64,000 nt of DNA from the NCBI GenBank assembly GCA_963744145.1, contig CAVUSO010000001.1:4246459-4310458 (forward strand). The letters are read 5' to 3'. Source of the DNA: an uncultured cyanobacterium. Lineage in GTDB: Bacteria; Cyanobacteriota; Cyanobacteriia; Cyanobacteriales; CAWUOF01. Every line of letters begins with the position of its first letter. Position 1 is the stretch's first letter. Positions 8,989 through 29,100 of this stretch are shown here, piece by piece. The notes below the pieces were generated by a model. That model saw nothing but the letters and a program-made list of their open reading frames with translations, was not told the origin of the DNA and made no database searches. The translations under genes were made by a program, and so were the position numbers.

Positions 8989-9134
8989 CCCATAAACTGA
9001 CTAGCTCCGATCATTCTCATTCTAATTGCGTTCACTAGCTTGTACCGTAGGTAATCGCTTTACTGGTTTGCTCCGGTGATACCTACATAGAGAAACAGTA
9101 ATACCAATTCACCATGAAGATACATTGATGTATA

Positions 9135-9310: not shown

Positions 9311-9377
9311 CCTCAGATTAAGTGCAATTTCATAGTTAATTGGTATAAGCGCGATTGAATCCAGTTGATTAATTTTG

Positions 9378-10988: not shown

Positions 10989-11280
10989 CCCATTTACTGA
11001 CTAGCTCCGATTATTCCCATTCTAATTGCGTTCACTAGCTTGTACCGTAGGTAATCACGATCGCGTACCGTAGGTAATCGCGTGGTCGTTGTCCAGTATC
11101 TAGATTTTTTGGCGATCGCGATCGTGGTCTAGTTCCAATGTGGTCTATTATCTGGCTAGAGAATTAACAGACATTGGATAGGTTTTGATAACTAATCAAA
11201 CGGATATAAAGCTTGAAACGATTGCTAGTTAAACGGTAAGCGTGATTGAATCCGGTTGATTAGTAATCGGATCTATTGGC

Positions 11281-12775: not shown

Positions 12776-13011
12776 TTTGCTTTAGTTGATTTGGCTCAAT
12801 TTTATTGTCACTATCCGTTAGCGTTACATTCACGTAGTGTACCATAGGTAATCGCTTGTTCCAGTTCTGCTTTGGAATTGCCGATTCAAGCAAGTATCTT
12901 AACAAATCTTTGCATCCTGTCCTATTTTGCACGTATCCTGGTAGGACTCGGTAAGGTAAGAGTAAAAAACTATAAATATTTACAGCGATTGAATCCGGGT
13001 GATTAATTCTG

Positions 13012-13365
13012 TTAACCTTGTCCGTTGCCTTGGTTTCTCTGTTGCAGTTGTAAATATTCCCAGATGCGTCTGATCTCTGCTCGATCTTCTTCACGTTGTC
13101 GGGATGCTTCCATATCGCGTCGTACTAATTCCATAATTAATCCGGACAAGTCTGTAATCGTATTTTGTAGTTGCAACTGACCATATGCCATTAAATCTAC
13201 CCTTTCAGTTAATCGCTCTATCTTCTCTGTAATAGATGAAAGATTTTGCTGAACTACGAGCATTTCATCAAGCATAATATTTGTTCTTTTCCCAAACTCT
13301 GTCTCGTTCTGACTAACTCGTTCCCTTAAATTAGTTATTTGTTCTTGTAGTGAATTAGTTTCCAT
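13012..13365 (-). CDS. small coiled-coil protein, copy B
   Basis: 117 aa, near-identical to copy A at the nucleotide level. Confidence 0.55.
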   Translation of the reverse strand: METNSLQEQITNLRERVSQNETEFGKRTNIMLDEMLVVQQNLSSITEKIERLTERVDLMAYGQLQLQNTITDLSGLIMELVRRDMEASRQREEDRAEIRRIWEYLQLQQRNQGNGQG

Positions 13366-14863
13366 TTTGCTTTAGTTGATTTGGCTCAATTTTATTGTCA
13401 CTATCCGTTAGCGTTACATTCACTTAGTGTACCATAGGTAATCGCTTGTTCCAGTTCGGCTTTGGAATTGCCGATTCAAGCAAGTATCTTAACAAATCTT
13501 TGCATCTTGTCCTATTTTGCACGTATTCCGGTAGGACTCGGTAAGGTGAGAGTAAAAGCAGTCTGACCTGGTGGGGTGCGATCAATCTTTAAATCACCAC
13601 CATGTGCCCGGGCAATTTCTCGTGATAAACTAAGTCCTAAACCAGTACCCTCAATTTGACGGTTACGTGCTGATCCACCTCGATGAAAACGTTCAAAAAT
13701 TTGTTTGTGTTCACTAATTGGAATAGTCTCAGAACTATTACTGACTGTAACACAGACCGTAAAACCATAAAGTTTGGCTTCAATCCGGACCCAACCAGAG
13801 GGTAAGTTATATTTAATCGCATTAGTCAAAAGATTCTGTAAGACCTGGACTATTAAATCGCGATCGCCCCAAATTTTTAAATTTTGCCCAATCTCACTTT
13901 GCAATTCTAGTTCAGGAGCAAGAATTTCTAGATCATCAGTTAAATCGACTAACATCTTAGATAAATCCATTTCAATTGCGTGTAAACGCATTTGTCCAGC
14001 ATCAGCTAAGGAGAGGAGTAAGAGCTTACGAACAATGGTACTTAAGCGACATACTTCATCGAGGAGATGACTAAATTTTTGCTGAAGTTCGGAACCGGAA
14101 TCAACTTGTTGGAGAGCGCATTCCAATTCTCCCTGTAAAATTGCTAAGGGGGTTTTTAGTTCATGAGCTGCATCAGCACTAAAACGTAAAGCTTGTTTAA
14201 AACTACGTTCTAATCGTCCCATCATCTGATTAAATACTTTCAGTAATTCCACAAATTCCAGAATCTGCTGTACCGATCGCAATCCTTTGATCTAATCCTT
14301 TAGCGGTTACTCTTTTAATCTTACCCGTAACTTCATGTAAGGGTTTAAGCGCACGTCCCGATAACCACCAAGCTCCCAATGCTACCAAAATTAGAGCGAC
14401 GGGAATGGAAATCAAAAAAATATTACCAATCGTATTCATTTCCCGATCGATCAAGATTAAATTAATCGCGATCGCAATGCGTATTCCGGGAGTTGTCACT
14501 GCTCCAACTCGCCAATAACCGCTCAGAGTCTTTTTGGTAAAAAAATTAATATGATGGGGAATATTTTCTGGTGGTGGTAATTCTTCCGGAAGTGGGTTTA
14601 CTGGTAACTGGGATGGGTGCCGAAAACTATCTCCTGGTGTGGGTGAGGAAGATGGTTTTTTCGGTGTTGAATTTAAAGTTGGATCTCGTTTTTCCGGAAT
14701 CTCAGCAGATGGTAATTGTTTATTTGTTTCTAAATTTGAAGTTGGATAGGATTTTTCTTCAATTCCGTGAGAAGAAGATGGATTTTTCTCCACTGAGTTT
14801 GGTGCTGATTCCCTTCTTTCTTGAATTTCAATAACAGAAGATTGTTTATTATGGATGGGGGTT

Positions 14864-15100
14864 GGTACTGGCTTTGGTTTTTCCGAGATACTAGGAGAGG
14901 GAGACGGTTTTTTCTCAACTGGACTCGGTACTGGCTTTGGGTTTTCCGGGATACTAGGAGAGGGAGACGGTTTTTTCTCAACTGGACTCGGTACTGGCTT
15001 TGGGTTTTCCGGGATACTAGGAGAGGGAGACGGTTTTTTCTCAACTGGACTCGGTACTGGCTCTGGTTTTTCCGGGATACTAGGAGGGGAAATCGGTTCT
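14864..15100. repeat. 63-bp tandem repeat, about 3.7 copies, inside the kinase gene
   Basis: Copies start at 14864, 14927, 14990 and 15053. They encode PSPSPSIPENPKPVPSPVEKK units on the minus strand. Confidence 0.85.
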
Positions 15101-15145
15101 GGTTTTTCTGAATTTGGTGCTGGGGTTTGTTCTCCAGGGATTTCT

Positions 15146-15435
15146 GGTGGAGGAAATTGTCTTTCTCCTGGGGGATTAGATGGGGAAATGGGTTGACTGG
15201 GAATTCCTGGTGGAGGAAATTGTCTTTCTCCTGGGGGATTAGAGGGAGAAAAAGGTTGATCGGGAATTCCTGATGGAGGAAATTGTCTTTCTCCTGGAGG
15301 ATTAGAGGGAGGAAAAGGTTGACCAGGAATTCCTGGTGGAGGAAATTGTCTTTCTCCTGGGGGATTAGAGGGAGAAAAAGGTTGATCGGGAATTCCTGGT
15401 GGAGGAAATTGTCTTTCTCCTGGAGGGTTTTGGGG
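15146..15435. repeat. second 63-bp tandem repeat, about 4.6 copies, inside the kinase gene
   Basis: Copies start at 15146, 15209, 15272, 15335 and 15398. They encode NPPGERQFPPPGIPDQPFSPS units on the minus strand. Confidence 0.85.
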
Positions 15436-15843
15436 TGGATGTGGTTGGATTTGAGGGAAGAAAATTTTTAAGGGATCGGCAAATAAAGATAATTCGAGAC
15501 TAGATAATAGGGGAAATAATTTAGTTTGATCCAGATCAACGGGCCAACTCTGGGATTGATATAATACTTGTTCAGCATTATCAACCACGAGCAAAGCTAC
15601 CCCACGTTCAGAACTAACATTAAAAAAAGACGGTAAATCGGCTTTGTATAATGACCAATGACTGATGGGACGAGGAGGATGGGACTCTCGTAACAACTGA
15701 CTGGTAATTTCACTGTCAAGACGAGCAACTTTACTTTTATAAATAAGTAACCAGGACGCAATTCCAAAACCGATTAGGGTACTACCTGCTAATAAGACGG
15801 AGAGGAAAGCAATCCGGAAACGGAAAGAACGTAACTTCACGGT

Positions 15844-16524
15844 TTAATCTCCTCCGATTTTCCGAAACCGATAACCTACTCCACGGACACTTTCTAGATA
15901 GTCAACTCCACCCACTTGCTCCAGCTTTTTTCTGATGCGTTGAATACAAACATCAACTAGATTAGTATTTGGGTTAAAATCATATCCCCACACATGTTCA
16001 AGGATTTGGGTGCGAGTAAAGACCCGACCCGAGGAACGCATCAGGTATTCTAAGAGGTTAAACTCACGGGTAGTTAATTCGACGGACTGTTGATTATAGG
16101 TAACTTCACGAGTAATCCGATCGAGTTTTAGTGGTCCAGCACTTAAGATATTTTGCCGATCGCCCGTCACTCTTCGGATTACTGCATGAATCCGAGCAAT
16201 TAGTTCTTCGACAAAAAAAGGTTTAGATAAATAGTCATCAGCACCAAAATTTAGTCCTTCTAGTCGATCGTTTAATTCATTGCGAGCTGTCAGTAAAATT
16301 ACTGGTACATTCCGACCACTACGACGTAAGCTTTTGAGGATGAATAATCCATCCTTACCGGGAAGCATGATATCAAGCACAATTACATCATACTGATTCT
16401 CCATCGCCCGATTATATCCTTCATCACCATTATCCGTATAATCAACGAGGAATCCCTGTTCTTTTAGTCCAGCACAGACAAAGCTGGCAATTTTCGCTTC
16501 ATCTTCACAATAGAGAACATTCAT
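15844..16524 (-). CDS. OmpR-family response regulator
   Basis: Receiver domain (DVIVLDIMLPGKDG) followed by a winged-helix output (LTTREFNLLEYLM...VRGVGYRF). The kinase start lies 3 nt downstream. Confidence 0.9.
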   Translation of the reverse strand: MNVLYCEDEAKIASFVCAGLKEQGFLVDYTDNGDEGYNRAMENQYDVIVLDIMLPGKDGLFILKSLRRSGRNVPVILLTARNELNDRLEGLNFGADDYLSKPFFVEELIARIHAVIRRVTGDRQNILSAGPLKLDRITREVTYNQQSVELTTREFNLLEYLMRSSGRVFTRTQILEHVWGYDFNPNTNLVDVCIQRIRKKLEQVGGVDYLESVRGVGYRFRKIGGD

Positions 16525-16749
16525 TTGCAGAATTAATGATTGCGATTATACCCTATTCTAGCTCAATTTGACACCAACTTAAATTACAAAAATGTAATTC
16601 AGCCATGTATAGAGATGTAATTTTTAGGTTGCTTAATGAAATTATCGGGAAGAGGAAAGCCAAAAACGCAAATAAAGGTCATCTTCTTCTGCTTCAGTAA
16701 AATCACTTTCTTTCCCTCTATAAACTGCAACTATTTCAGGAGAATACTG

Positions 16750-17262
16750 ATGAAATTACGGAACTTAGTTTGTGTAGGAATTGTCTCACTGTTTATTCCT
16801 GTTAGTAGTCATCTTGCTTTTGCTCAATCCGAATTAAGTCAGACTCAATCAAATTCAACTCCTGTTGATTCTAGTAATCAGAATTCCCCTTGTCCTCCTC
16901 CACCAACTATGGGTGGAAAGGGACCTGAAGGTAATGCTTTACCACCTTGGTCTAAAGATATTAATCTGAGTAATCAACAAATAGAACAGATTAAAACACT
17001 CCACGAACAATCTCAAAAAGATACGGAAAGTTTACGACAACAACTCCATCAAGCTGAAGACCAAATGCGATCGCTGTTAGAAAGTGATGCTCCGATGGAT
17101 AAGTTACAGCAACAACATCAACAAATTCAAACCCTACGTCAACAACTTGATGATAAACATTTCCAAATGATGGTAGCTGAAAATAAGCTTTTAACTCCCG
17201 CTCAACGTAGTCAAATTAGCAAATTTATGCAGCAACATCGTCCTCCTCAACCACCAATGTAA
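16750..17262 (+). CDS. Spy/CpxP-like periplasmic protein (LTxxQ motif)
   Basis: I prefer the internal ATG at 16750, which gives a signal peptide MKLRNLVCVGIVSLFIPVSSHLAFAQ. The rest is a Q-rich helical protein with LSNQQIEQIKTLHEQ and LLTPAQRSQISKF (LTxxQ-type) motifs. It is divergent from the regulator/kinase pair. Confidence 0.6.
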   Translation: MKLRNLVCVGIVSLFIPVSSHLAFAQSELSQTQSNSTPVDSSNQNSPCPPPPTMGGKGPEGNALPPWSKDINLSNQQIEQIKTLHEQSQKDTESLRQQLHQAEDQMRSLLESDAPMDKLQQQHQQIQTLRQQLDDKHFQMMVAENKLLTPAQRSQISKFMQQHRPPQPPM

Positions 17263-17327: not shown

Positions 17328-17570
17328 ATGTCAGCTTTTACTACTTTATCAATCACGGAAGATGGATTTGCTTTCGACTCAAAAACTGGCGAAAGCTATA
17401 TTTTAAACAGTTGCGCTCAATTGGTGATTAAAGGTTTACAAAAAGGCGAAAATCGTCAAGATATCATTCACAATCTGGCACGGGAATTTGGGGTCACTCA
17501 AAATACAATTGAACGAGATATTGCCGACTTTTTTGGACAACTCAATAGTTTAGGAATGTTCACTAACTAA
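17328..17570 (+). CDS. PqqD-family small protein (peptide-chaperone / RiPP-recognition-element fold)
   Basis: 80 aa. ...DSKTGESYILNSCAQLVIKGLQKGENRQDIIHNLAREFGVTQNTIERDIADFFGQL matches the PqqD pattern (beta strands followed by a helical bundle). Confidence 0.65.
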   Translation: MSAFTTLSITEDGFAFDSKTGESYILNSCAQLVIKGLQKGENRQDIIHNLAREFGVTQNTIERDIADFFGQLNSLGMFTN

Positions 17571-17629
17571 GCTGAGGAAAAGTTGGTTGGAAATAATAAA
17601 TAAACAGAATAATTCAGAGGAGGAAATCA

Positions 17630-18670
17630 ATGAGACATCCAACCATAGCTGTTACGGGGATTAATGCGGTAGATAATCCTGGTCCTGGGACAGGAGTTGC
17701 CCGAAGTTTACGCGAAGATCAAGAATTATCAATGCAAATTGTTGGTCTAGCTTATGACGCAATGGAACCAGGGTTATATATGGATTGGCTATTCGATCGC
17801 CGTTATATTATGCCATATCCTGCGGCTGAACCGGAAGTTTCTTTAGAACGATTAGAACAAATTCAGTCACAATTTGGACTTGATTGCATTATCCCTAATT
17901 TCGATCTCGAATTACCCCTTTACATTCGTTATGCTCAGGAGCTAAAAGCACTCGGAATTCACACTTATCTACCTACTAAAGCTCAATTTGCGCTCCGTAA
18001 TAAAGCGAATTTGACTGAAGCTGCGAAAAATTTTGGAGTAGAGACACCCAAGACTATTGTAGTAAGTTCAGTACAGGAATTGCAGGAAGCGACCAAAGAA
18101 TTAGGGTTTCCCTTAATGATTAAAGGACCCTATTACAAAGCTTACAAAGTTTCTAGCAATCAAGAAGCATTACATCGCTTTTATCACTTAGCTAATGAAT
18201 GGGGATATCCCATCATTGTGCAACAGATAGTGAGTGGAATTGAATTGAATTTAGTCTCAGTTGGGGATGGTAAAGGGAGTCACCTCGGTTTAGTCGCAAT
18301 TAAAAAGATGGGGGTGACAGATTTAGGGAAAATCTGGAGTGGTTTAACGATTCATCATCCTGGGTTATTAAAAGTTGCGGAAAACTTTCTTCAACATACC
18401 CAATGGAAAGGTCCGTTTGAACTCGAATGTATCGCGGATGTGGATGGAACTATCTATCTGATTGAAATTAACCCTCGATTTCCAGCATGGACTTATTTTG
18501 CTACAGGAGTGGGAGTTAATTTACCTGCTCGATTAGTCCGAGCTGCTCTAGGATTACCTTTACCTCCCTTAGAACCCTATCCCGTCGGTAAATTATTGAT
18601 GCGTTATACCTACGAAATGGTCATGGACGCAACCCCTCTACAAACCTTAGTAACCATCGGAGAAAGATAA
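17630..18670 (+). CDS. ATP-grasp ligase (carboxylate-amine ligase type)
   Basis: 346 aa. GFPLMIKGPYY..., IVQQIVSG.ELN, and the Mg-binding ELECIAD..GTIYLIEINPRFPAW. Confidence 0.8.
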   Translation: MRHPTIAVTGINAVDNPGPGTGVARSLREDQELSMQIVGLAYDAMEPGLYMDWLFDRRYIMPYPAAEPEVSLERLEQIQSQFGLDCIIPNFDLELPLYIRYAQELKALGIHTYLPTKAQFALRNKANLTEAAKNFGVETPKTIVVSSVQELQEATKELGFPLMIKGPYYKAYKVSSNQEALHRFYHLANEWGYPIIVQQIVSGIELNLVSVGDGKGSHLGLVAIKKMGVTDLGKIWSGLTIHHPGLLKVAENFLQHTQWKGPFELECIADVDGTIYLIEINPRFPAWTYFATGVGVNLPARLVRAALGLPLPPLEPYPVGKLLMRYTYEMVMDATPLQTLVTIGER

Positions 18671-18671
18671 A

Positions 18672-20048
18672 ATGTTAGCTCAATACGAAAAACCCGCAAT
18701 CAAAAAGTTACAAAGTGGATTGATGAATAAGTTTGCTGGAGCAAGTTCACCACGTCGTAATGTGAAAACGGAAATAGCTGGAATTACGATCGATGATTTA
18801 GTTGCTGAGTTTGGTTCACCTCTATTTGTTTATTCTGAGCGATCGCTCCGTCGGAAATTCCGGACAATTAAAAGTGCTTTCACTACCCGTTATCCTGATG
18901 TGACTTTTGGTTGGTCTTACAAAACTAATTACTTAAAAGCGATTTGCGCTATTATGCACCAAGAAGGTGCGATCGCTGAATTGGTTTCCAAAATGGAATA
19001 TGACAAAGCTAAAGCATTAGGTATTCCGGGAAATCAAATCATTCTCAACGGTCCCCACAAACCCTTAGCTACCCTAGAAGCAGCAGTTTTAGATGGAGTG
19101 ACAATCAATATTGATCATTTAGATGAAATTGACGACTTAGAAACGATCGCTACTAAACTAGGACGCACAATTACCGTCGGATTAAGACTAAATCTGGATG
19201 TAGGAATTCAACCAAAATGGTCACGATTTGGATTTAATTTAGAGTCAGGTCAAGCATTAGAAGCAGTGCGACGAATTGCTAAGGGTGGAAAGCTACGTTT
19301 GAATGGATTACATAGCCATATTGGCACATTTATCCTTGAACCTAGTGCTTACGGTCGTCAAGTTGAGAAAATGGTGAAATTTGGTTATGAAATCGAAAAT
19401 CTGTTTAATTGGAGAATGGATTATATCGATATCGGTGGTGGTTTTCCCTCTCGGAGTCGTTTAAAAGGTATCTATCATTCTGCTGAAGTAATGTTACCAT
19501 CAATTGATGAATTTGCTGATGCGATTTGTGACGCTTTATGGGCAAATCTCAAACCCGGACATACCCCCAAACTGATTATTGAATCCGGACGAGCAATGGT
19601 GGATGAAGCAGGTACACTAATCTCAACAGTTTGGGCAAATAAAACTTTACCTGATGGTACTCCTGCGTATGTAATTGATGCGGGAATTAACCTACTCTTT
19701 ACTAGCTTTTGGTATCGGTTTGATATCGCACTCGATCGCCATGTTTCTGGTTCTGCTCAAAACTCAGTCATTTACGGACCGATGTGCATGAATATTGATG
19801 CGATCGATGAAGGAATCTCTTTACCACCTTTACCAAGAGGTACAAGACTGGTAATTTCCACAGTTGGAGCTTATAACAATACTCAATGGATGCAATTTAT
19901 TGAATACCGTCCTAACATTGTTCTCATCAGTGAAAGCGGTAATGTTGAATTAATTCGTGAAGCAGAAGACCTCAGTGATTTAGAACGACGGGAACATTTA
20001 CCAGCTCGATTAAGTCCGATCGCGAATTTATCTACTCGGACTCATTAA
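18672..20048 (+). CDS. PLP-dependent decarboxylase, Orn/DAP/Arg decarboxylase (group IV) family
   Basis: Putative PLP-lysine motif WSYKTNY, glycine loop YIDIGGGFPS, ESGRAMV (the EPGR equivalent), and the C-terminal GPMCMNIDAI. The start lies 1 nt after the ATP-grasp stop. Confidence 0.8.
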   Translation: MLAQYEKPAIKKLQSGLMNKFAGASSPRRNVKTEIAGITIDDLVAEFGSPLFVYSERSLRRKFRTIKSAFTTRYPDVTFGWSYKTNYLKAICAIMHQEGAIAELVSKMEYDKAKALGIPGNQIILNGPHKPLATLEAAVLDGVTINIDHLDEIDDLETIATKLGRTITVGLRLNLDVGIQPKWSRFGFNLESGQALEAVRRIAKGGKLRLNGLHSHIGTFILEPSAYGRQVEKMVKFGYEIENLFNWRMDYIDIGGGFPSRSRLKGIYHSAEVMLPSIDEFADAICDALWANLKPGHTPKLIIESGRAMVDEAGTLISTVWANKTLPDGTPAYVIDAGINLLFTSFWYRFDIALDRHVSGSAQNSVIYGPMCMNIDAIDEGISLPPLPRGTRLVISTVGAYNNTQWMQFIEYRPNIVLISESGNVELIREAEDLSDLERREHLPARLSPIANLSTRTH

Positions 20049-20063
20049 TTTCTTCTATCTGGT

Positions 20064-20090
20064 GTAGTAAGCGTTCAAAACGCTTACTAC
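20064..20090 (+). other. perfect 12-bp stem / 3-nt loop hairpin between the decarboxylase and the membrane-M23 gene
   Basis: gtagtaagcgtt caa aacgcttactac. No U-tract follows, so it is not a canonical intrinsic terminator. Confidence 0.6.
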
Positions 20091-20137
20091 CAAGTACATC
20101 TACTTTCATCACCTCAATCATTAGCGGAGTTAAAAAT

Positions 20138-22366
20138 ATGCTAGGTTTGCGCTACGAATCAATCCTAGACCTGGTTACCTTCACCACCGAAAAAAGTAAA
20201 AATTCTACTTTTCTACCCATCAAAATTTTTACCAAATTAGTCCAATTCTGTCAACCTTTAATTCTAGCATTATGTGCTGCAACTGCGGAAATTCTTTTTT
20301 TGCGTGGTGTCGGGACAGGGGCACTTTTACTAACAGCGATGCTCCTCCAACCAGCAGTTTTATTAATGGGAATAACCGGAGTAATCGCAGCAGTTACCTT
20401 TGCTAAAATTGCTCAACTTGGACAGAACTATCTCGATCGAGGTCCATTTCTCTTTAACCCACTTCTAGCAGGTTTAAGTGTCGGTTACCTATTTCAACCA
20501 GGAGCAGCTTCTTTATTTCTCGCTGGAGTAGCAGGAATATTAGCTTTTATTCTCACCTGGACTCTATCCCATATCTTCCGAACTTTCTTATTTTTACCTG
20601 TCTTAAGTTTACCCTTTATCATCGTCAGTTGGGTAGTACATCTAGCTGCATTTCGTTATGCTGGATTACAACCAGCAATTATTCCTGCTCATGTTTATTC
20701 CATTGGTTTACCAATCTGGATGGAAGGATTCTTGAGAACTTTAGGGTTGATTTTTTTCCTCCCTAATATCTGGGTAGGAATTGTCGTCGCAGGATTACTA
20801 TTAGTCAACTCACGCATCCAATTTTTATTAGCAATAGGTGGTTATGCGTTAGGAACTTCCATTCGCGGTATTCTCACAGGAACATTTATTTATGTCTATT
20901 ATGATCCAGCAGCATTAAATTTTGTATTAGTTGCATTAGCGATCGGTGGTTTTTATCTCCTTCCCTCCATCCGAAGTTATGCGATCGCAGGTTTAGCAAT
21001 TGGATTAGTTGCAGTATTAAGCGAAGCAGTGAGTGTATTTTGGGCAGCTTCTGGGTTACCAGTTCATGCGTTACCTTATAATTTAGTCACCTTATTATTG
21101 TTGTATGTATTGGGATTAGTAGGATATCGTTGGTTAACTAGATATCCTCAACCAACTCCAGAACAAACTCTCGATTATGAATTAACTGCTCGATTAAGAT
21201 ATCAAGGTACGGGAAAAACAATTTCCTTACCTTTTTCTGGTCGTTGGTTAGTTTGGCAAGGTTTTCATGGTCAATGGACTCATCAAGGTTTGTGGTGTTA
21301 TGCTTATGATTTTGTGATTCAAGATGAGTCTGGTTCTACTTATCGTGATGATGGATTTAATCTGAAAGATTATTATGCTTATGGTAAACCAATCCTCTCT
21401 CCAGTTCGAGGTTGGATCGTTCGAGTCATTAGTGATTTACCAGATTGTGCGATCGGTAATATTGATCAGGAACATAATTGGGGTAATCATATAATTATTT
21501 ACGATGAACGAGGTTTTTATGTCGAAATATCCCATTTTGCTCAACATAGCATTACCGTAAAATCAGGCGATCGCGTAGAAATTGGCACTTTATTAGGTCG
21601 TTGTGGTAATTCTGGTTATTCTTCCCAACCACATATTCATATTCAAGTCCAACTTAGCGCCGAATTAGGTGCAGCAACAGCACTATTTAGTTTTGCTAAT
21701 CTGATGGTAGATGGTGAATTTAGAGCCGAAGCTACCCCATCAGAAAATACTATATTAGAACCAGTAGCAAGCGATCGCGCTCTCGCTAAAGCTTTAACTT
21801 TCCCCCTTGATTCTAGTTTCGATTTTACTGTTACTCAAAAAGAAAAAATCGTTGATCATCTCTCTTTAACTACCCGGATCACAGGAGATGGTTGGTTTTA
21901 TCTAGATTCGGGTAAAGCCAAATTATACTTTAGTCGAGATGAGTACGGATTTATCTTTCATCGATTAGATGGTAATGATCCTAACTTAGCCTTATTATTA
22001 ACAGCAATTCCTCGATTACCCCTAGCTAGACGTGAACCCGGAAATACATGGTCTGATTATCTTCCCGTCGGGATGATGATTACTGGAATTCGACAAATGG
22101 TTTACTTATTTGCTAGTTCCTTTGTACCAGAGTTAGCTTCAGCTCGCTATACTGGTGAATGGATTTCAAATGAAACTTTAGTAGGAGCAGTCACCATCCC
22201 AGGAATCAAGAATAAAGTATTGACATCTGCTACTTTTGCTCAAAATGGAGAAATTCTCAGAGTCGGTGTCGGTCAGCGATCGCTAGTACGTCAAGATTTA
22301 CAGGTTGTCACCCAGAAATCCCACCGTTGTTTAGGAGTCGGGATGAATGGAAGTACCGTTGGTTAG
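20138..22366 (+). CDS. fusion protein: polytopic membrane domain + M23 metallopeptidase + C-terminal domain of unknown function
   Basis: About 330 aa with roughly 10 hydrophobic helices, possibly of the urea-transporter fold (unverified). Then GNHIIIYDERGFYVEISHFAQHSITVKSGDRVEIGTLLGRCGNSGYSSQPHIHIQV, the M23 HxH signature. Then about 220 aa with no motif I recognise. Confidence 0.7.
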   Translation: MLGLRYESILDLVTFTTEKSKNSTFLPIKIFTKLVQFCQPLILALCAATAEILFLRGVGTGALLLTAMLLQPAVLLMGITGVIAAVTFAKIAQLGQNYLDRGPFLFNPLLAGLSVGYLFQPGAASLFLAGVAGILAFILTWTLSHIFRTFLFLPVLSLPFIIVSWVVHLAAFRYAGLQPAIIPAHVYSIGLPIWMEGFLRTLGLIFFLPNIWVGIVVAGLLLVNSRIQFLLAIGGYALGTSIRGILTGTFIYVYYDPAALNFVLVALAIGGFYLLPSIRSYAIAGLAIGLVAVLSEAVSVFWAASGLPVHALPYNLVTLLLLYVLGLVGYRWLTRYPQPTPEQTLDYELTARLRYQGTGKTISLPFSGRWLVWQGFHGQWTHQGLWCYAYDFVIQDESGSTYRDDGFNLKDYYAYGKPILSPVRGWIVRVISDLPDCAIGNIDQEHNWGNHIIIYDERGFYVEISHFAQHSITVKSGDRVEIGTLLGRCGNSGYSSQPHIHIQVQLSAELGAATALFSFANLMVDGEFRAEATPSENTILEPVASDRALAKALTFPLDSSFDFTVTQKEKIVDHLSLTTRITGDGWFYLDSGKAKLYFSRDEYGFIFHRLDGNDPNLALLLTAIPRLPLARREPGNTWSDYLPVGMMITGIRQMVYLFASSFVPELASARYTGEWISNETLVGAVTIPGIKNKVLTSATFAQNGEILRVGVGQRSLVRQDLQVVTQKSHRCLGVGMNGSTVG

Positions 22367-23997: not shown

Positions 23998-24204
23998 ATG
24001 CAACAATCGCGTGAGCTGATTCGCAGTTATGCCGCTTATGCTCTGAGTGCCTTTAAGAATTTTAGTGCAGCAGACATAGAAGAAATTACCCTGAAATTTG
24101 GGTTAAATATTGGTGGTAAAGCCGGAATTCCTTTTATCACAGAAGGAACTGCCGAAAGCAATTTAGAAATCGAAGTTAAATATAAATTTTCTAAGGCGAC
24201 TTAA
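23998..24204 (+). CDS. 5'-truncated duplicate of the Trypco2-like gene (C-terminal 68 aa)
   Basis: 23968..24236 aligns with 30481..30749, covering both coding sequence and 3' flank. The ORF starts at the internal Met of the full-length paralogue. Confidence 0.7.
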   Translation: MQQSRELIRSYAAYALSAFKNFSAADIEEITLKFGLNIGGKAGIPFITEGTAESNLEIEVKYKFSKAT

Positions 24205-24280
24205 AAAAAATTAAATAAAAAACGATTAACTGTTAAGTGCTTTTTTATTGGTATTCGAGGAAGGCGATCGCTCCAAATGT

Positions 24281-25201
24281 ATGACCAATGATTTTCCCAT
24301 CTTGTTTGTTACGGAAAAAGCTTATGAAGAATCCTCGAATGAAATTTTAGGGAGCAAGTATAAGTTTTGGTTCTATCACGAAGAATTTGGTCGTTGTCTT
24401 TACAAACAAAACCGAGTCAACTTGGGAGAAGATTGGGCAGAGAAAGTCGCATCAGAATTGTGTGAATTAATCGGACTTCCTCACGCTGTTTATGAATTGG
24501 CTTCAACTTGGAAAGGCGATCGCGGTGTAATTTCACCCAACTTTTTACCACAAGGGGGGACGCTTGTACATGGTAACGAACTGCTTACTTCAATTGTGCC
24601 AAATTACCTAACATTTAGCACCTACGGCGCATCACAACATACAATTGATGTAGTTTTAAGAGTTATTGCAGGCAGTTCTGTAAATTTACCCATTAATTGG
24701 ACACCGCCCTCTGGTATCCAAAAAGCAGTGGATGTATTTGTTGGCTATCTTTTGTTAGATGCGTGGATTGGTAACGGAGATCGTCACCATGAAAACTGGG
24801 GGATTGTCCGAATAAAACCGTCATCTACTTCAGAAGAAATGGAACACTTAGCACCTACTTACGATCATGCCTCAAGTTTAGGACGTGAACTCTCTGATGA
24901 AAAAAGGCAGAAACGATCTATACTGGATTATACCGACAAATGTTTTTCAGCGTTTTATGGTAGTGTTGATGATAAAAAGAGCCTGAAAGTTTTTGATACA
25001 TTCTCCCAAGTTGTTCATCGTTATCCCCAAGCAGCTAGTGTGTGGTTGACGCGACTTGAAAATATATCAGAAGCCAATATATTAGATATTTTTAATCGCA
25101 TTAATTGCTCACGGATCTCTCCCAATGCCAGTAATTTTGCTCAAAAAATTCTGGAAATTAACAAACACAGGATACTAACCTTATGGGAAACACTACCTTA
25201 A
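24281..25201 (+). CDS. HipA-like Ser/Thr kinase core without a HipA N-terminal domain (HipT-like architecture)
   Basis: Catalytic region LLLDAWIGNGDRHHENWGIV and APTYDHASSLG match the HipA C-domain motifs. The length (about 306 aa from the ATG at 24281) is too short to include the HipA N-subdomain. Confidence 0.75.
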   Translation: MTNDFPILFVTEKAYEESSNEILGSKYKFWFYHEEFGRCLYKQNRVNLGEDWAEKVASELCELIGLPHAVYELASTWKGDRGVISPNFLPQGGTLVHGNELLTSIVPNYLTFSTYGASQHTIDVVLRVIAGSSVNLPINWTPPSGIQKAVDVFVGYLLLDAWIGNGDRHHENWGIVRIKPSSTSEEMEHLAPTYDHASSLGRELSDEKRQKRSILDYTDKCFSAFYGSVDDKKSLKVFDTFSQVVHRYPQAASVWLTRLENISEANILDIFNRINCSRISPNASNFAQKILEINKHRILTLWETLP

Positions 25202-25212
25202 AAACACTAAAA

Positions 25213-25977
25213 ATGAAGACATCAAAAACACTATTTTTAGCTTGGCAAGACTATTTTAGTCGCGCTTGGTTTACCATAGGTCGGTTAACATTTGACGGAG
25301 ATATTTATAAATTTGTCTATACGCAAGGTGTAAAAGAAGCTCAAGAAAAATGTGCTTTTAATCCTTTATCTTCCTTTCCATATTTAGATCAAGTCTATAC
25401 ATCAACTCACCTATTTCCAGTCTTTGCTAATCGGTTAATGTCGCGATCGCGTCCTGATTATTCCAGTTTTATTGAATCGTTAAATCTTTTACCTGATAAT
25501 AACGAACCAATGGAAGTTTTAGCCCGCAGTGGTGGAGAACGAGAAACAGATACACTTGCGGTTTTTCCTTGTCCAGAAGTTGATGAAAAGGGACAATACA
25601 ATCTCTATTTTTTCTCGCATGGGTTGCGACACTTACCAACCAGTGCAATTGAGCGGATTAATCAGTTTGAACCTAGAGAAGAATTATGGTTAGCTCACGA
25701 ATTTCAAAATTCTTACGATTATCAGGCTTTAACTTTAAATACTAAAGACCATTACATTGTCGGTTATTGTCCGCGATATTTGCTGGCAGAAATTTTTGAA
25801 TTGCTTCGGCAAAATTCCAGTCTAAAAGTGCGAGTAGAGCAAGTAAATAAATCTCCAACCCCACTTCAGTTTCGTCTGTTATGTAAAATGAGTGTCAATT
25901 GTAGAGATAATTTTTGTCCTTTCTCAAGTAGTCAATATCAATCGCTGATTGTAGAAATTGCGATGAAATCTGCATAA
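25213..25977 (+). CDS. HipS/HipA-N-like domain fused to a HIRAN-like domain
   Basis: The N-half (F..IGRLTFDG..YKFVY...FNPLSSFPYLDQVYTSTHLFPVFANRL...PMEVLARSGGERETDTLAVFP) parallels the HipA N-terminal coupling domain. The C-half (EPREELWLAHEFQNSYDYQALTLNTKDHYIVGYCPRYLLAEIFELL) parallels the HIRAN pattern. It overlaps the kinase gene end. Confidence 0.55.
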   Translation: MKTSKTLFLAWQDYFSRAWFTIGRLTFDGDIYKFVYTQGVKEAQEKCAFNPLSSFPYLDQVYTSTHLFPVFANRLMSRSRPDYSSFIESLNLLPDNNEPMEVLARSGGERETDTLAVFPCPEVDEKGQYNLYFFSHGLRHLPTSAIERINQFEPREELWLAHEFQNSYDYQALTLNTKDHYIVGYCPRYLLAEIFELLRQNSSLKVRVEQVNKSPTPLQFRLLCKMSVNCRDNFCPFSSSQYQSLIVEIAMKSA

Positions 25978-26192
25978 CGCTTGGTATTATAATAACAAGA
26001 TTTACGCAAAATATCAACGCGATCGCATATACGGTATAATTAACTGTCAGAACGCTATTCCTAGAACGAGGCTCGCTAACATAAAATGCGTAAGTCTTGT
26101 ATATATTAAGTGCTGCTGAATATCTCATTAACTAGGAATATGCTGTAAATTGCACCAGTCTATAAATCGTGGCAGTTTATAAATCTTTGTGA

Positions 26193-29100
26193 TCATTTCC
26201 ATTGATTACAAACTTCTTTTATAGAATCAACTACACCTCGCATAGCTGTTTCTTCACCTAATGAAATAATAGCAGGATAAAGAGTTACTAAGTTTTTTAT
26301 AAAGTCTTGTCTATTAGTAGATGCTAGGATGTGAAGATATAACTTCCAATCAGAGAATGATAAATTAGATAAATCAAGACTATGGAGAAAACCATTGATT
26401 GCTTTTGCTTGATTTGGTTTAGAATTTATCTTAAAAATCTCATTTTTCACTTGAGATAATAATTGTTCAGGTACGAATTTACTTAGACCATTCAATACCT
26501 CTGCCCGACTGGATTCATCCTGAATAGTGCGTGCCGCATCCAAGGCTTCGGCAAAATAGGCCCTATCAATCTGAGCAAGGGAACTCAATACCTCTGCCCG
26601 ACTGGATTCATCCTGAATAGTGCGTGCTGCATCCAAGGCTTCGGCAAAATAGGCCCTATCAATCTGAGCAAGGGAACTCAATACCTCTGCCCGACTGTAT
26701 TTATCCTGAATAGTACGTGCCGCATCCAATAAAACTGAGAAATCTGCACCATCAATCTGAGCAAGAGATCTCAATACCAATGCCCGAAGGGATTCAGACT
26801 GAATAGCGCGTGCCGTATCCAATAAAACTGAGAAATCTGCACTATCAATCTGAGCAAGAGATCTCAATACTAATGCTCGAAGGGGTTCAGACTGAATAGT
26901 GCGTGCTGCATCTAATGCTTCTCCAAAATAAGCACTATCAATTTGAGCAAGGAATCTCAATACCTCTGCCCGACTGTATTTATCCTGAATAGCGCGTGCC
27001 GCATTCAATAAAACTGAGAAATCCGCACTATCAATCTGAGCAAGGGATCTTAATACCCATGCCCGCAAGAATTTATCCTGAATAGTGTGTGCCGCATCCA
27101 ATAAAACTGAGAAATCCGCACTATCAATCTGAGCAAGGGAACTCAATACCTCCGCCCGAATAGATTCAGACTGAATAGCGCGTACTGCATCCAATGCTTC
27201 GGCAAAATAGGCCCTATCAATCTGAGCAAGGGAACTTAATACCTTTGCCCGAATAGATTCATCCTGAATAGCGCGTGCCGCATCCAATGCTTCTGTAAAA
27301 CAGGCACTATCAATCTGAGCAAGGGAACTCAATACCTTTGCCCGAAGTGCCCGACGGGATTCATCCTGAATAGCGCGTGCCGCATCCAATGCTTCTGTAA
27401 AACAGGCACTATCAATCTGAGCAAGAGAACTCAATACCCATGCCCGAAAGGATTCATCCTGAAGAGCGCGTGTCGCATCCAATGCTTCGGCAAAATAGGC
27501 CCTATCAATCTGAGCAAGAGAACTCAATACTAATGCCCAAATGAATTGATCCTGACTAGCTTGTGCTGCATCCAATGCTTCTGTAAAATAGGCATTATCA
27601 ATCTGAGCAAGAGAACTCAATACTAATGCCCGATTTTTTTCATCCTGAATAGCGCGTGCTGCATCTAATGCTTCGGTAAAATAGGCCCTATCAATCTGAG
27701 CCAGGGCACTCAATGCCTCTGCCCGATTTTTTTTATCCTGAATAGCGCGTGCTGCATCCAATGCTTCGGTAAAATAGGCCCTATCAATCTGAGCCAGGGC
27801 ACTCAATACTTCTGCCCGATTGGATTCATTCTGAATAGCGCGTGTCGCATCCAATGCTTCGGCAAAATAGGCCCTATCAATCTGAGCCAGGGCACTCAAT
27901 GCCTCTGCCCGATGGTATTCATCCTGAATAGCGCTTATTTTTGTTAAAGCCTTCTTAAATAATGGTTTGGAAAAATAACAACATAATCCCTTAATCCATT
28001 CGGCTATTTTATGTTCATCTTGCATTTGCTCTACATAAGCCCAAGCTTGCTCTATTGTCCAAAATTTACCTTTGACAAATTCTTTGATCATGTCAATCGG
28101 TAGGTTTTCCAATAAACTGTTTAATGTTGCTGTAATTAAGGCATACCGATATTGCAGAACAATAGAGCGGGTTTTGTCTTGCTCATATTGTTGTTCGGCG
28201 ATCGCCCAAGCTCTAGCCACATCTTCCACAAAAATTGCTGGTTGACCAAGGCGATCGCAAGTTTCAAACCAAGCATTATGTCCTAAGCGATCGCTACTAC
28301 CTAGAAGAGTATGAATTTCATCAATCCAACCAGCTTGCTCTAAGTGCCAAGTCAACTGACGATGAATATATCCATCATTCGGTAAATTATACCAAGATTT
28401 TTCCTCAGTTTTTTCTCGGTAACGTTCTAGAAATTGTTGATGAGCCAAAGATAAGCAAGAACAATTTTTATCCCTAGAGCCTAGAGAATTAAGCTTACCT
28501 TCTTCAATCAGACTCCGAGCCATATCGTGCATAAGGTCGTGGATACGATAGGTTGGCTCATCCTCTAATGTAGTAACACCATCAGTCAGAAAAGAACGGT
28601 GTCGCAATAATGACAATCTTTGTTTAACTTGCACATTAGACGACAAATTCCACAGAACCGAAGCAACCTCTAGGGTAAGATTAACATCTTCTGGCAAAAT
28701 ACCTAACCAGGCAAACTGTTCTAACTGTTCCTGATTCAGCCGCTTTAAACTTAAGTTGAAACAAACTTCCAAACTATGTTTACGCTGTTCTTGCTCATCT
28801 AAATCTTCCCATCTTTCCGATGACTGTAAAAGTTTAAATACTCTAGAAAACTCAGCCTTAAATTCAGCTCGTAATTCCGCCCAAGTTGAACCATCTTTGA
28901 TTAAGTTAATCGCTAAATCCAGAGCTAATGGCAAATATCCCAATACCTGAGCAAAGGCTTTTGCTTCTATTTGATCAGCATCTTTCCAATCTTTGCCTAA
29001 CTTTCCTTTAATCAGTTCTAACGCTTCATCTTCGCTCATCAAATCTAAAGAATAGTAATCAGCCTGAGCAATTCTTGCTTCCCTAGTTGTCACCAATACC

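What the first reader, a model, noticed from the sequence alone, without database searches (positions are those of the whole stretch)
17328..22366. PqqD / ATP-grasp / PLP-decarboxylase / membrane-M23-peptidase operon with no visible precursor gene
Four tightly packed same-strand genes, with gaps of 59, 1 and 89 nt. They are a PqqD-fold small protein, an ATP-grasp ligase, a group IV PLP decarboxylase with intact motifs, and a 742-aa fusion of a ~10-TM domain, an intact M23 HxH peptidase and an unassigned ~220-aa tail.

PqqD proteins normally present a peptide to a modifying enzyme. However, I find no short precursor-like ORF between 17262 and 22400.

A decarboxylase paired with an ATP-grasp amide ligase recalls small-molecule pathways (butirosin BtrJ/BtrK, vibrioferrin PvsA/PvsE). 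The DAP-decarboxylase fold plus an M23 endopeptidase also fits editing of peptidoglycan stem peptides.

The operon starts 66 nt after a Spy/CpxP-like gene and sits beside a divergent two-component system, so it may be an envelope-stress output. I cannot place this four-gene combination in any described pathway.
Basis: partly seen in the sequence, partly recalled or inferred. Interest (0 to 1): 0.75.

Follow-up and report, generated by a model that had tools for sequence, protein, structure and literature searches.

The report
Orphan chaperone–ligase–decarboxylase–channel-peptidase cassette
This is a real four-gene cassette of unknown product, kept in the same order from cyanobacteria to Aquificota and not found in the papers searched, and the peptide its chaperone was thought to lack may be a conserved lasso-leader-like tag on the cassette's own decarboxylase.

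Summary
Four same-strand genes lie at the stated coordinates, with gaps of 59, 1 and 89 nt.

The small protein is closest to lasso-peptide B1 leader-binding chaperones. The ligase is a CPSase-like ATP-grasp. The decarboxylase resembles FslC/BtrK, not LysA. The 742-aa protein is a urea-transporter-fold channel, then an M23 peptidase with all five catalytic residues invariant, then a roughly 200-aa domain with no structural neighbour.

The same gene order recurs in 30 or more of 38 loci from at least six phyla. No small ORF is conserved beside it.

Natural fusions (UT–M23–tail, one TM helix, TPR) put the peptidase in the cytoplasm, which argues against peptidoglycan editing.

New finding: all 38 decarboxylases start with YEKPxIxxLx[ST]G[LF]MNKF|[A/G]. 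This matches the lasso leader motif, Tyr(-17)/Pro(-14)/Leu(-12), in both residues and spacing.

Best model (confidence about 0.35):
- The chaperone docks this built-in tag.
- The ligase and decarboxylase make an amide-linked amine.
- The M23 domain cleaves at the channel mouth.
- The product leaves toward TPR and outer-membrane partners.

In cyanobacteria a two-component system and a Spy-like gene flank the cassette. I found no description in the literature searched.

The parts
13512..15840 (-). Sensor histidine kinase of the flanking two-component system. In this window it is split by a frameshift near 14265-14275 and carries proline-rich 63-nt tandem repeats.
   Evidence: HisKA and HATPase_c domains. 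The frame changes between '...GLDQRIAIGTAD' and 'LEFVELLKVFNQMM', whereas homologues have one ORF. Tandem repeats at 14864-15423. Syntenic in 28 of 39 sources.
15844..16524 (-). OmpR-family response regulator, divergent from the cassette.
   Evidence: PF00072 and PF00486. It is 77-88% identical and lies divergently beside the cassette in most cyanobacterial loci and in a Burkholderiales locus.
16583..16598 (.). Conserved palindrome ATTACA-N4-TGTAAT in the divergent promoter region. It is the likely response-regulator operator. A second TGTAAT follows 23 nt downstream.
   Evidence: Unique in the window, with 0 matches expected by chance. The same element lies about 40-80 nt upstream of the RR start in 14 of 22 cyanobacterial loci exactly, and in 3 more with one mismatch. 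These include loci where PqqD directly follows it.
16750..17262 (+). Spy/CpxP/ZraP-like periplasmic protein. The ORF is listed from 16636, but the probable start is 16750.
   Evidence: PF13801 at 7e-9, LTXXQ, and NCBIfam Spy at 8e-9. A signal peptide follows the Met at 16750, which is preceded by GGAG. Present in 15 of 39 sources.
17328..17570 (+). PqqD-family protein of the lasso B1 type (RiPP recognition element).
   Evidence: PF05402 at 2e-10. The profile matches TfuB1 at 1.9e-12 and TbiB1 at 2.2e-10, against 1.9e-4 for PqqD itself. Its stop overlaps the ATP-grasp start in most loci. Its C-terminus is not conserved.
17630..18670 (+). Stand-alone ATP-grasp carboxylate-amine ligase, CPSase-like (PRK12767 type).
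   Evidence: The profile matches PDB entry 2pn1 at 4e-19 and CPS at 3e-13, and no graspetide ligase appears. The Mg/ATP motifs are invariant.
18684..18734 (+). Leader-like N-terminal tag of the decarboxylase: Y5-E-K-P-A-I-K-K-L-Q-S-G-L-M-N-K-F21, followed by A22.
   Evidence: Present in 38 of 38 orthologues with fixed spacing. Conservation is near-absolute from -17 to -1 and collapses after +2. The pattern occurs in 32 of 992 ORFs, all of them decarboxylases, against 0.07% in shuffled sequence. It lies outside the region that aligns to LysA, FslC or DokD. It matches the lasso leader motif Tyr(-17)/Pro(-14)/Leu(-12) (PMC10368454).
18672..20048 (+). Group IV PLP-dependent decarboxylase of the FslC/BtrK type.
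   Evidence: PDB matches: FslC 1.5e-49, DAPDC 7e-37, BtrK 1e-17. It shares WSRFGF and C-M-x-x-D with FslC. It scores below the LysA cut-off.
20213..21121 (+). Urea-transporter-fold channel domain (residues about 26-328) of the fusion protein.
   Evidence: PF03253 at 2e-46. Foldseek match to dvUT with TM-score 0.81. Pore relay positions: Pa is Glu in 49/54, 5a is Ser in 54/54, Pb is Leu/Ala/Thr, and 5b is Ala in 31 and Thr in 22, compared with Q-T-T-Q in urea channels (PMC11589576).
21215..21682 (+). Cytoplasmic M23 zinc metallopeptidase domain (residues about 360-515).
   Evidence: PF01551. H382, D391, H466, H499 and H501 are invariant in 54/54 sequences. Foldseek matches LytM-type domains. 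The cytoplasmic location follows.
21689..22297 (+). Beta-rich C-terminal domain with no assigned fold (residues about 518-720).
   Evidence: AF2 pLDDT 90.5. The best PDB neighbour is LolA at E 3.7e-3 and TM about 0.3, which is not significant. There are 399 representative clusters, almost all in the same UT-M23 architecture.

Best explanation
The cassette encodes a membrane-anchored biosynthesis-and-release machine for a small amide-linked amine or pseudopeptide directed at the cell envelope.

Proposed steps:
1. The ATP-grasp enzyme joins a carboxylate to an amino acid through that amino acid's side chain. This is inferred from the enzyme family.
2. The FslC/BtrK-like PLP decarboxylase removes the free alpha-carboxylate of the attached amino acid and leaves a terminal amine. 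This is inferred from its closest characterised relatives.
3. The small PqqD protein is a lasso-B1-type peptide chaperone. Its ligand is not a separate precursor. It is the conserved leader-like 17-mer (YEKPxIxxLx[ST]G[LF]MNKF) at the N-terminus of the decarboxylase. Binding would dock the decarboxylase into the complex, or present the tag to the peptidase, or both. This is an inference from this work.
4. The M23 domain has an intact active site and sits in the cytoplasm at the mouth of the UT-fold channel. It would cut an amide bond there. The bond is either the KF|[A/G] junction of the decarboxylase tag (activation) or a bond that frees the product. This is inferred.
5. The product would cross the inner membrane through the modified UT pore. 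This is inferred.
6. In most phyla a periplasmic TPR protein and a putative outer-membrane barrel would take the product further. In some lineages the TPR is fused to the channel protein, which is shown. In some cyanobacteria an SLH/OprB porin gene lies next to the cassette.
7. In cyanobacteria an OmpR-type two-component system and a Spy-like gene flank the cassette, which suggests induction by envelope or metal stress. This is inferred from synteny and a conserved operator.
For: Module reality:
- The gene order PqqD, ATP-grasp, decarboxylase, UT-M23 is identical in cyanobacteria, Burkholderiales, Bacteroidota, Aquificota, Verrucomicrobiota and Calditrichota.
- Stop and start codons overlap in most loci.
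- Family tally across 39 sources: 39, 37, at least 35, and 34.

Chemistry:
- The decarboxylase is nearest to FslC and also matches BtrK, both of which act on side-chain-linked amino acids.
- The ATP-grasp and decarboxylase catalytic motifs are intact.

Chaperone and tag:
- The PqqD profile matches lasso B1 proteins about 10^7-fold better than PqqD proper.
- The decarboxylase tag is present in 38 of 38 orthologues, is specific (32 of 992 ORFs, all decarboxylases, against 0.07% in shuffles), and has YxxPxI with the conserved G/A exactly 17 residues after the Tyr.
- Recognition of Tyr(-17)/Pro(-14)/Leu(-12) by B1 proteins is documented (PMC10368454).
- No conserved small ORF exists nearby.

Peptidase and channel:
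- The M23 catalytic set is invariant.
- The AF2 model is confident (pLDDT 89) and the UT and M23 folds are confirmed.
- The cytoplasmic side is supported by the positive-inside rule and by fusions of UT-M23-tail, one TM helix and two TPR modules in three clusters, one from Pirellulales.

Envelope partners:
- A TPR orthologue is present in all 8 non-cyanobacterial loci with enough flank, and barrel-like genes in at least 5.
- An SLH/OprB porin is adjacent in 8 cyanobacterial loci.

Regulation: TCS synteny and the conserved palindrome.
Against: - No substrate or product is known. The ATP-grasp has no characterised close relative.
- Binding of the tag by the PqqD protein is untested. I had no multimer modelling tool and no structure jobs left.
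- The tag could be a structural element of the enzyme that resembles a lasso leader by coincidence. The canonical Thr(-2) is Lys here.
- The UT pore is narrow in known members and is only partly diverged, so passage of anything larger than a small linear molecule is doubtful.
- Cyanobacterial loci lack the TPR and barrel genes, and the window has neither them nor the porin.
- The window's kinase is frameshifted, so regulation in this strain is uncertain.
- The tail domain has no assigned role.
Confidence: 0.35

Rival explanations
1. This is a classical RiPP pathway whose precursor peptide is encoded elsewhere in the genome. The B1-like protein would bind that leader. The ATP-grasp would form an isopeptide or add a residue, the decarboxylase would tailor it, the M23 domain would act as leader peptidase, and the membrane domain would anchor or export.
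For: The small protein is a bona fide lasso-B1-type RRE (NCBIfam lasso_PqqD at 7e-11). A protease, an ATP-dependent amide-forming enzyme and a membrane protein mirror the lasso B1/B2/C/D logic. Cyanobacteria are known to keep some RiPP precursors in trans (my own knowledge).
Against: No conserved small ORF lies beside the cassette in 34 loci, and the tightly packed operons of five other phyla leave no room for one. A fold-type III PLP decarboxylase needs a free alpha-amino acid, which an ordinary peptide does not offer. The UT pore is far too narrow for a peptide. The decarboxylase tag supplies a cis ligand.
Confidence: 0.17
2. This is a small-molecule pathway, such as a metallophore or polyamine-like protectant analogous to rhizoferrin or vibrioferrin, in which the PqqD protein and the decarboxylase tag play no recognition role. 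The M23 and tail domains would be regulatory or structural, and the UT domain would be the exporter.
For: The decarboxylase is FslC-like. The ATP-grasp plus decarboxylase pairing recalls PvsA/PvsE. Neighbouring regulators are of metal or envelope-stress type: PF13801 'heavy-metal resistance' with Spy/ZraP in cyanobacteria, and a sigma-54 regulator with a MamS/X-like protein in Calditrichia.
Against: No NIS synthetase, TonB receptor or siderophore exporter occurs in any locus. It leaves unexplained the strict conservation and translational coupling of the RRE, the invariance of the M23 catalytic residues, and the 17-mer tag.
Confidence: 0.2
3. The cassette edits or recycles peptidoglycan stem peptides. 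The decarboxylase would convert peptide-bound meso-DAP, the ATP-grasp would add a residue as D-aspartate ligase does, and the M23 domain would cut cross-links.
For: The decarboxylase has the DAPDC fold and the M23 family is typically a murein endopeptidase. The cassette has envelope-stress neighbours. ATP-grasp ligases that act on UDP-MurNAc-peptides exist (my own knowledge).
Against: The M23 domain is cytoplasmic and has no PG-binding module. The decarboxylase is below the LysA cut-off and has FslC-type motifs. The RRE has no role in this scheme.
Confidence: 0.07
4. The cassette is a nitrogen-scavenging module. The UT domain would be a true urea or amide channel importing substrate for a CPSase-like ATP-grasp and downstream enzymes.
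For: The UT fold is strong. The ATP-grasp's nearest relatives are carbamoyl-phosphate synthetase and biotin carboxylases.
Against: The outer half of the urea hydrogen-bond relay is replaced by Leu/Ala in most members (against PMC11589576). No urease, allophanate hydrolase, biotin carrier or carboxyltransferase gene occurs in any locus. This scheme does not explain the RRE, the M23 domain, the TPR or the barrel.
Confidence: 0.05

Closest known systems
Lasso-peptide B1/B2 module (RRE chaperone plus leader peptidase, e.g. TfuB1, TbiB1, BsfB1/B2)
   Same: The small protein is homologous to B1 proteins. A YxxPx[L/I] motif with Tyr at -17 from a small residue is present (PMC10368454). A protease and an ATP-dependent amide-forming enzyme are encoded alongside.
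   Different: There is no separate precursor, no transglutaminase-type B2 protease (an M23 metallopeptidase takes that place), no Asn-synthetase-type cyclase (an ATP-grasp takes that place) and no ABC exporter. The motif sits on a 458-aa enzyme. Lys replaces Thr at -2, and no Asp or Glu lies at core positions 7-9.
Butirosin side-chain pathway BtrI/BtrJ/BtrK
   Same: It has the same triad logic: a small partner protein, an ATP-grasp ligase and a group IV PLP decarboxylase that acts on a side-chain-tethered amino acid. BtrK is homologous at 1e-17.
   Different: The partner is an RRE, not a phosphopantetheinylated ACP. No BtrO/V, BtrH or BtrG equivalents are present, and there is no aminoglycoside context.
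NIS-siderophore decarboxylases FslC (rhizoferrin), PvsE (vibrioferrin) and SbnH (staphyloferrin B)
   Same: FslC is the best solved relative, with shared WSRFGF and C-M-x-x-D motifs. The likely substrate class is an amide-linked amino acid.
   Different: The match is below the NCBIfam FslC cut-off (204 against 500 bits). No IucA/IucC synthetase and no siderophore transport genes are present. The N-terminal tag is unique to this clade.
Peptidase-containing ABC transporters (PCATs)
   Same: The architecture is analogous: a cytoplasmic peptidase fused to a membrane conduit, with a likely cut next to Gly or Ala (analogy from my own knowledge).
   Different: The peptidase (M23 against C39) and the membrane domain (UT channel against ABC) are unrelated. 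There is no ATPase, and the pore is too narrow for peptides.
Urea channels dvUT and UT-B
   Same: Same fold (TM-score 0.8) and same N-in/C-in topology. Ser at 5a and the LPxxxxPF signatures are retained.
   Different: Pa is Glu instead of Gln, Pb is Leu/Ala/Thr, and 5b is often Ala. The domain is fused to M23 and a new domain. No urea-metabolism genes lie nearby.

Membership tests
RiPP biosynthetic gene cluster (RRE-dependent) | RiPP recognition element (PqqD-like wHTH) | tested here: met
   PF05402 at 2e-10. The profile matches TfuB1 and TbiB1.
RiPP biosynthetic gene cluster (RRE-dependent) | Separate precursor peptide gene in or beside the cluster | tested here: not met
   No candidate in the window. 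No small-ORF family occurs in more than 6 of 34 loci after masking. Operons in other phyla are tightly packed.
Lasso peptide cluster | B2 transglutaminase-like cysteine protease and Asn-synthetase-like lasso cyclase | tested here: not met
   The only proteins in the cassette are an ATP-grasp, a PLP decarboxylase and UT-M23. None of 39 sources has a conserved extra gene of this kind.
Lasso peptide cluster | Leader motif YxxPxL at -17 to -12 recognised by B1 | tested here: inconclusive
   The motif is present with correct spacing, but on the decarboxylase N-terminus. Binding has not been tested.
Graspetide / microviridin cluster | MdnB/MdnC-type ATP-grasp macrocyclase with a cognate precursor | tested here: not met
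   The ATP-grasp profile hits CPSase-like and carboxylase structures only. There is no precursor.
Diaminopimelate decarboxylase LysA | Reaches the TIGR01048 equivalog cut-off and has the DAPDC motifs (C-E-S/T-G-D) | tested here: not met
   208 bits against a 297.9-bit cut-off. The motif is C-M-N-I-D and WSRFGF is shared with FslC.
NIS siderophore pathway (rhizoferrin/vibrioferrin type) | IucA/IucC-family synthetase plus siderophore export and uptake genes | tested here: not met
   Absent from the window flanks and from all loci examined.
Butirosin BtrI/J/K-type pathway | Acyl carrier protein as tether | tested here: not met
   The small protein is PqqD/B1-like, not an ACP.
Urea transporter (functional urea channel) | UT fold | tested here: met
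   PF03253 at 2e-46. Foldseek match to dvUT at 9e-16 with TM 0.81.
Urea transporter (functional urea channel) | Polar relay Q(Pb)-T(5b)-T(5a)-Q(Pa), the urea recognition motif | tested here: not met
   The family has L/A/T - A/T - S - E at these positions. The motif definition is from PMC11589576.
Murein M23 endopeptidase (MepM/LytM/lysostaphin type) | Zn ligands and catalytic His residues | tested here: met
   H382, D391, H466, H499 and H501 are invariant in 54/54 sequences. The first motif is Hx8D.
Murein M23 endopeptidase (MepM/LytM/lysostaphin type) | Extracytoplasmic location with access to peptidoglycan | tested here: not met
   The C-terminal linker averages 5.65 K+R, against 0 in four loops. 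Fusions with one TM helix before a periplasmic-type TPR are seen.
Cpx/Spy-type envelope-stress regulon | Two-component system with an adjacent Spy/CpxP-family gene and a shared operator | tested here: inconclusive
   Synteny and the conserved palindrome are seen. Induction has not been tested, and the kinase is frameshifted in this window.
Known anti-phage defence systems | Match to PADLOC models | tested here: not met
   No hits for any of the four proteins.

The most novel reading that the evidence does not exclude
A RiPP-recognition-element chaperone has been recruited outside RiPP biosynthesis. Its ligand would be a lasso-leader-like propeptide built into a metabolic enzyme, the decarboxylase. 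The chaperone would use this tag to assemble, or to activate proteolytically through a cytoplasmic M23 peptidase, an envelope-spanning machine that makes and releases a small amine product. That machine would comprise a UT-fold channel, a periplasmic TPR protein and an outer-membrane barrel. If so, 'orphan' RREs without precursors would have an explanation, and there would be a new type of small-molecule export route in diderm bacteria.
Probability: 0.3. Interest if true: 0.9.

Novelty: categorically new. Interest (0 to 1): 0.78.

Why it matters
1. Stand-alone PqqD/RRE proteins with no visible precursor are a recurring puzzle in genome mining. A leader-like tag embedded in an enzyme would be a new and directly testable answer.

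2. The UT-M23-tail protein, with or without fused TPR, is a previously undescribed architecture. It occurs in about 400 sequence clusters across many phyla. It combines a channel fold known only for urea with a cytoplasmic member of a peptidase family known almost only from cell-wall hydrolysis, plus a domain of unassigned fold.

3. The strict conservation from Aquificota to cyanobacteria points to an unknown, probably envelope-related metabolite.

4. In cyanobacteria the cassette appears wired to an envelope or metal-stress two-component system. That gives a handle for induction experiments.

Tried and rejected
- PqqD as a LysW-like C-terminal carrier: rejected, because the C-termini are variable.
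After masking, nothing was conserved.
- Large homologue search with the 80-aa PqqD protein: returned only the query itself, a wasted search.
- Tail domain as LolA- or lipocalin-like: the best Foldseek hit has E 3.7e-3 and TM about 0.3, which is not significant.
- Whole-model Foldseek: found only UT and M23.
- Defence-system reading: no PADLOC hits.
- Rfam: only one tRNA in the window, far from the locus.
- Promoter and terminator scans: no more sites than in shuffled sequence.
- Accessory barrel-like proteins: no Pfam or NCBIfam family. The TPR proteins match generic TPR models only.
- TPR, barrel and SLH porin: none is encoded in the window.
- Lasso-type ring after the tag: no Asp or Glu at positions 7-9 after the putative +1 residue (read from the sequences).
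- Simple hydropathy alone: could not resolve the topology.
- Seven literature searches on combinations of the components: none found a description.

Full report
**1. Observation**

The four ORFs are at the reported coordinates and lie on the + strand: 17328-17570 (80 aa), 17630-18670 (346 aa), 18672-20048 (458 aa) and 20138-22366 (742 aa). The gaps are 59, 1 and 89 nt, and 65 nt separate the first gene from the upstream Spy-like gene.

Pfam and NCBIfam confirm the domain calls:
- PqqD (PF05402, 2e-10).
- An ATP-grasp with only weak family matches. The best is the PRK12767 'CPSase-like' family at about 1e-19.
- A group IV PLP decarboxylase (PF02784 at 5e-30, PF00278 at 3e-10).
- A fusion of PF03253 (urea transporter, 2e-46) with PF01551 (M23, 3e-10).

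Catalytic motifs are intact in all three enzymes. No RNA family, promoter excess or terminator excess marks the region.

**2. Is the set real?**

A scan of one genome per species with the ATP-grasp found 33 loci. A tblastn map shows the order PqqD, ATP-grasp, decarboxylase, UT-M23-tail in nearly all of them. These include a Burkholderiales MAG and two Bacteroidota MAGs at about 40% identity. The Bacteroidota PqqD gene was found by ORF listing.

Looking up fusion-protein homologues placed the same four genes, in the same order, in three more phyla:
- Persephonella (Aquificota)
- Verrucomicrobiota
- Calditrichota

Across 39 sources the family counts are 39 for the ATP-grasp, 37 for the decarboxylase, at least 35 for PqqD and 34 for UT-M23. 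In most loci the PqqD stop overlaps the ATP-grasp start, and the ATP-grasp stop overlaps the decarboxylase start. This indicates translational coupling and leaves no room for another gene.

**3. The missing precursor**

All ORFs of 12-130 aa around the cassette in 34 loci were clustered. After masking, no family occurred in more than six loci. The top family is a conserved DNA element, not a peptide. The PqqD C-termini are variable, so a LysW-type carrier role is unlikely.

**4. Component by component**

*Small protein.* A profile of 15 cassette PqqD proteins matches the lasso-peptide B1 chaperones TfuB1 (1.9e-12) and TbiB1 (2.2e-10) far better than PqqD itself (1.9e-4). The two best NCBIfam hits are also lasso-type chaperones.

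*ATP-grasp.* Alone or as a profile, its nearest solved relatives are an uncharacterised CPSase-like protein (2pn1), CPS and the biotin carboxylases. Dipeptide ligases match only marginally, and no graspetide ligase appears.

*Decarboxylase.* It is closest to FslC, the N-citrylornithine decarboxylase (1.5e-49). DAP decarboxylases follow at 7e-37 or weaker, and BtrK matches at 1e-17. It shares WSRFGF and C-M-x-x-D with FslC, where DAPDCs have SKFG and C-E-S/T-G-D. It scores below the LysA cut-off. FslC and BtrK both decarboxylate an amino acid that is already tethered through its side chain.

*Fusion protein.* A 54-sequence alignment gave an AF2 model with pLDDT 89 and pTM 0.82. Foldseek confirms the UT fold (dvUT, TM 0.81) and the LytM-type M23 fold.
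- The five M23 metal and catalytic residues are invariant in 54/54 sequences. The first motif is Hx8D.
- The urea-channel polar relay is Q(Pb)-T(5b)-T(5a)-Q(Pa) (PMC11589576). In this family those positions read L/A/T, A/T, S and E. This is probably not a canonical urea channel.
- The tail was modelled alone (pLDDT 90.5) and has no significant structural neighbour.
- An exhaustive profile search finds the tail in 399 representative clusters, almost always at residues 480-690 of UT-M23 proteins.

**5. Topology and envelope partners**

The N-terminal flank and the C-terminal linker of the UT domain are the lysine- and arginine-rich segments. Four loops have no Lys or Arg at all. This fits the N-in/C-in topology of UT proteins.

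Independent evidence comes from natural fusions. Three clusters of about 1075 aa, one from a Pirellulales MAG, continue after the tail with exactly one hydrophobic helix and then two tandem TPR modules. These TPR modules are homologous (down to 1e-48) to a free-standing, signal-peptide-bearing TPR protein. That TPR protein is encoded next to the cassette in all eight non-cyanobacterial loci with enough flank.

So the M23 and tail domains are cytoplasmic and the TPR is periplasmic, and the two are functionally linked. A protein of about 300 aa with a signal peptide and a C-terminal Phe, probably an outer-membrane barrel, accompanies them. In Bacteroidota the equivalent is a 436-aa protein combining TPR and barrel-like regions. 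In eight cyanobacterial loci an SLH/OprB porin gene lies next to the cassette, directly downstream in Nostocales. The window has none of these genes.

**6. Regulation in cyanobacteria**

A divergent OmpR-type regulator and kinase flank the cassette in 28 of 39 sources, and a Spy/ZraP-like gene in 15. A palindrome, ATTACA-N4-TGTAAT, lies about 40-80 nt upstream of the regulator gene in most cyanobacterial loci. This includes loci where PqqD follows directly. It is unique in the window at 16583-16598. In Calditrichia the cassette follows a sigma-54 two-component system and a MamS/X-like periplasmic protein.

**7. A candidate for the chaperone's ligand**

Every cassette decarboxylase (38 of 38) begins with Y-E-K-P-x-I-x-x-L-x-[S/T]-G-[L/F]-M-N-K-F, followed by Ala or Gly.
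- Conservation is near-absolute over these 17 residues and collapses two residues later.
- The catalytic domain aligns to all characterised relatives only from about residue 29. The segment is therefore a clade-specific N-terminal tag followed by a variable linker.
- The pattern occurs in 32 of 992 ORFs of the data set, all of them decarboxylases, and in 0.07% of shuffled N-termini.
[quoted passage not shown] Here Tyr, Pro and Ile have the same spacing, and with Tyr at -17 the +1 position is exactly the conserved Gly or Ala.
- M23 peptidases typically cut next to Gly or Ala (my own knowledge).

**8. Model**

I propose that the B1-like protein binds this built-in tag. Binding would either dock the decarboxylase into a membrane-associated complex, or present the tag to the M23 domain for cleavage at KF|[A/G], or both. 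The ATP-grasp and the decarboxylase would make a side-chain-linked, decarboxylated amine product. The M23 domain at the channel mouth would perform the hydrolytic step. The UT-fold pore would release a small product toward the TPR and outer-membrane partners.

Shown:
- the synteny
- the folds
- the invariant catalytic residues
- the topology
- the fusions
- the tag and its specificity

Inferred:
- the chemistry
- the binding of the tag
- the cleavage
- the transport
- the regulation

**9. Rivals**

- A RiPP pathway with a trans-encoded precursor remains possible. It is weakened by the lack of any cis precursor in six phyla and by the chemistry of the decarboxylase.
- A pure small-molecule or metallophore pathway does not explain the coupled RRE, the invariant peptidase or the tag.
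- Peptidoglycan editing is contradicted by the cytoplasmic M23 domain and the non-LysA decarboxylase.
- A urea or nitrogen role is contradicted by the altered pore and the absence of urea-metabolism genes.

**10. Novelty**

Public annotation gives only generic names: 'urea transporter', 'peptidase M23', 'carboxylate-amine ligase'. Seven full-text searches on combinations of the components found no description. The library does not cover all journals, so an existing description cannot be excluded.

The cassette fails at least one defining feature of every known system I considered. I therefore rate it as a new kind of system built from known families.

Noticed in passing
window 14230-14285 (- strand): The sensor kinase next to the cassette is split into two overlapping ORFs by a frameshift, between '...GLDQRIAIGTAD' and 'LEFVELLKVFNQMM'. 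Homologues in other loci have a single ORF. This is either a pseudogene or a sequencing error.
   Followed up: partly
window 14864-15423 (- strand gene): Two arrays of 63-nt tandem repeats (3.7 and 4.5 copies, 92-95% identical) encode proline-rich repeats, PPGERQFPPPGIP and PKPVPSPVEKKPSPSPSI, in the kinase's N-terminal region. The region also shows a strong GC-skew spike.
   Followed up: partly
window 16583-16598: Palindrome ATTACAAAAATGTAAT in the divergent RR/Spy promoter. It is conserved as ATTACAAAAyTGTAAT in most cyanobacterial loci and is followed by a second TGTAAT or TGTCAT about 21-23 nt later. It is the likely response-regulator box.
   Followed up: partly
window 16636-16750: The Spy-like ORF is listed from 16636. 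A GGAG box, an ATG at 16750 and a signal peptide immediately after it suggest that the real start is 16750.
   Followed up: partly
window 8404-11874 (- strand): Four tandem paralogous Uma2-family (PF05685, putative restriction endonuclease) genes of 193-205 aa.
   Followed up: no
window 23998-30296: A conflict-system-like island: a Trypco1 domain protein (23998-24204), a HipA_C-like protein (24248-25201), a HIRAN-domain protein (25183-25977) and a 1367-aa caspase(C14)-NB-ARC-HEAT protein on the opposite strand (26193-30296).
   Followed up: no
L002 7300-13500: In Oscillatoriales USR001 the TCS, the Spy-like gene and the ATP-grasp are present, but PqqD, the decarboxylase and UT-M23 are missing and replaced by unrelated ORFs. 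This looks like a decayed copy of the cassette. L024 lacks UT-M23.
   Followed up: partly
L007, L011, L017, L018, L032 (~12600-14500); L029; L010/L012 upstream: An SLH/OprB-type outer-membrane porin gene (515-640 aa) lies next to the cassette in eight cyanobacterial loci. In Nostocales it lies directly downstream on the same strand.
   Followed up: partly
P0275 (1029 aa, Logan assembly): A variant fusion. UT-M23 and a truncated tail are followed by a multi-TM region and TPR-like repeats of a different type.
   Followed up: no
L036 10195-15399; L037 1-4726: In Verrucomicrobiota, two radical-SAM genes and FeoB/FeoA follow the cassette. In Calditrichia, a sigma-54 two-component system and a Gly/His-rich MamS/MamX-like periplasmic protein precede it.
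   Followed up: no
L003 (JBLNEP010000206.1): This contig is labelled as an Actinomycetota MAG, yet it carries the cyanobacterial-type locus (TCS, Spy-like gene and cassette) at 81-83% protein identity to the window. It is probably a binning error.
   Followed up: no
ATP-grasp residues 10-27 (window 17657-17710): An unusual, fully invariant N-terminal motif, G-x-N-x-x-D-N-P-G-P-G-x-G-x-A-R-S-L, is seen in all 25 aligned orthologues. It could be a substrate or partner site, but its role is unknown.
   Followed up: no
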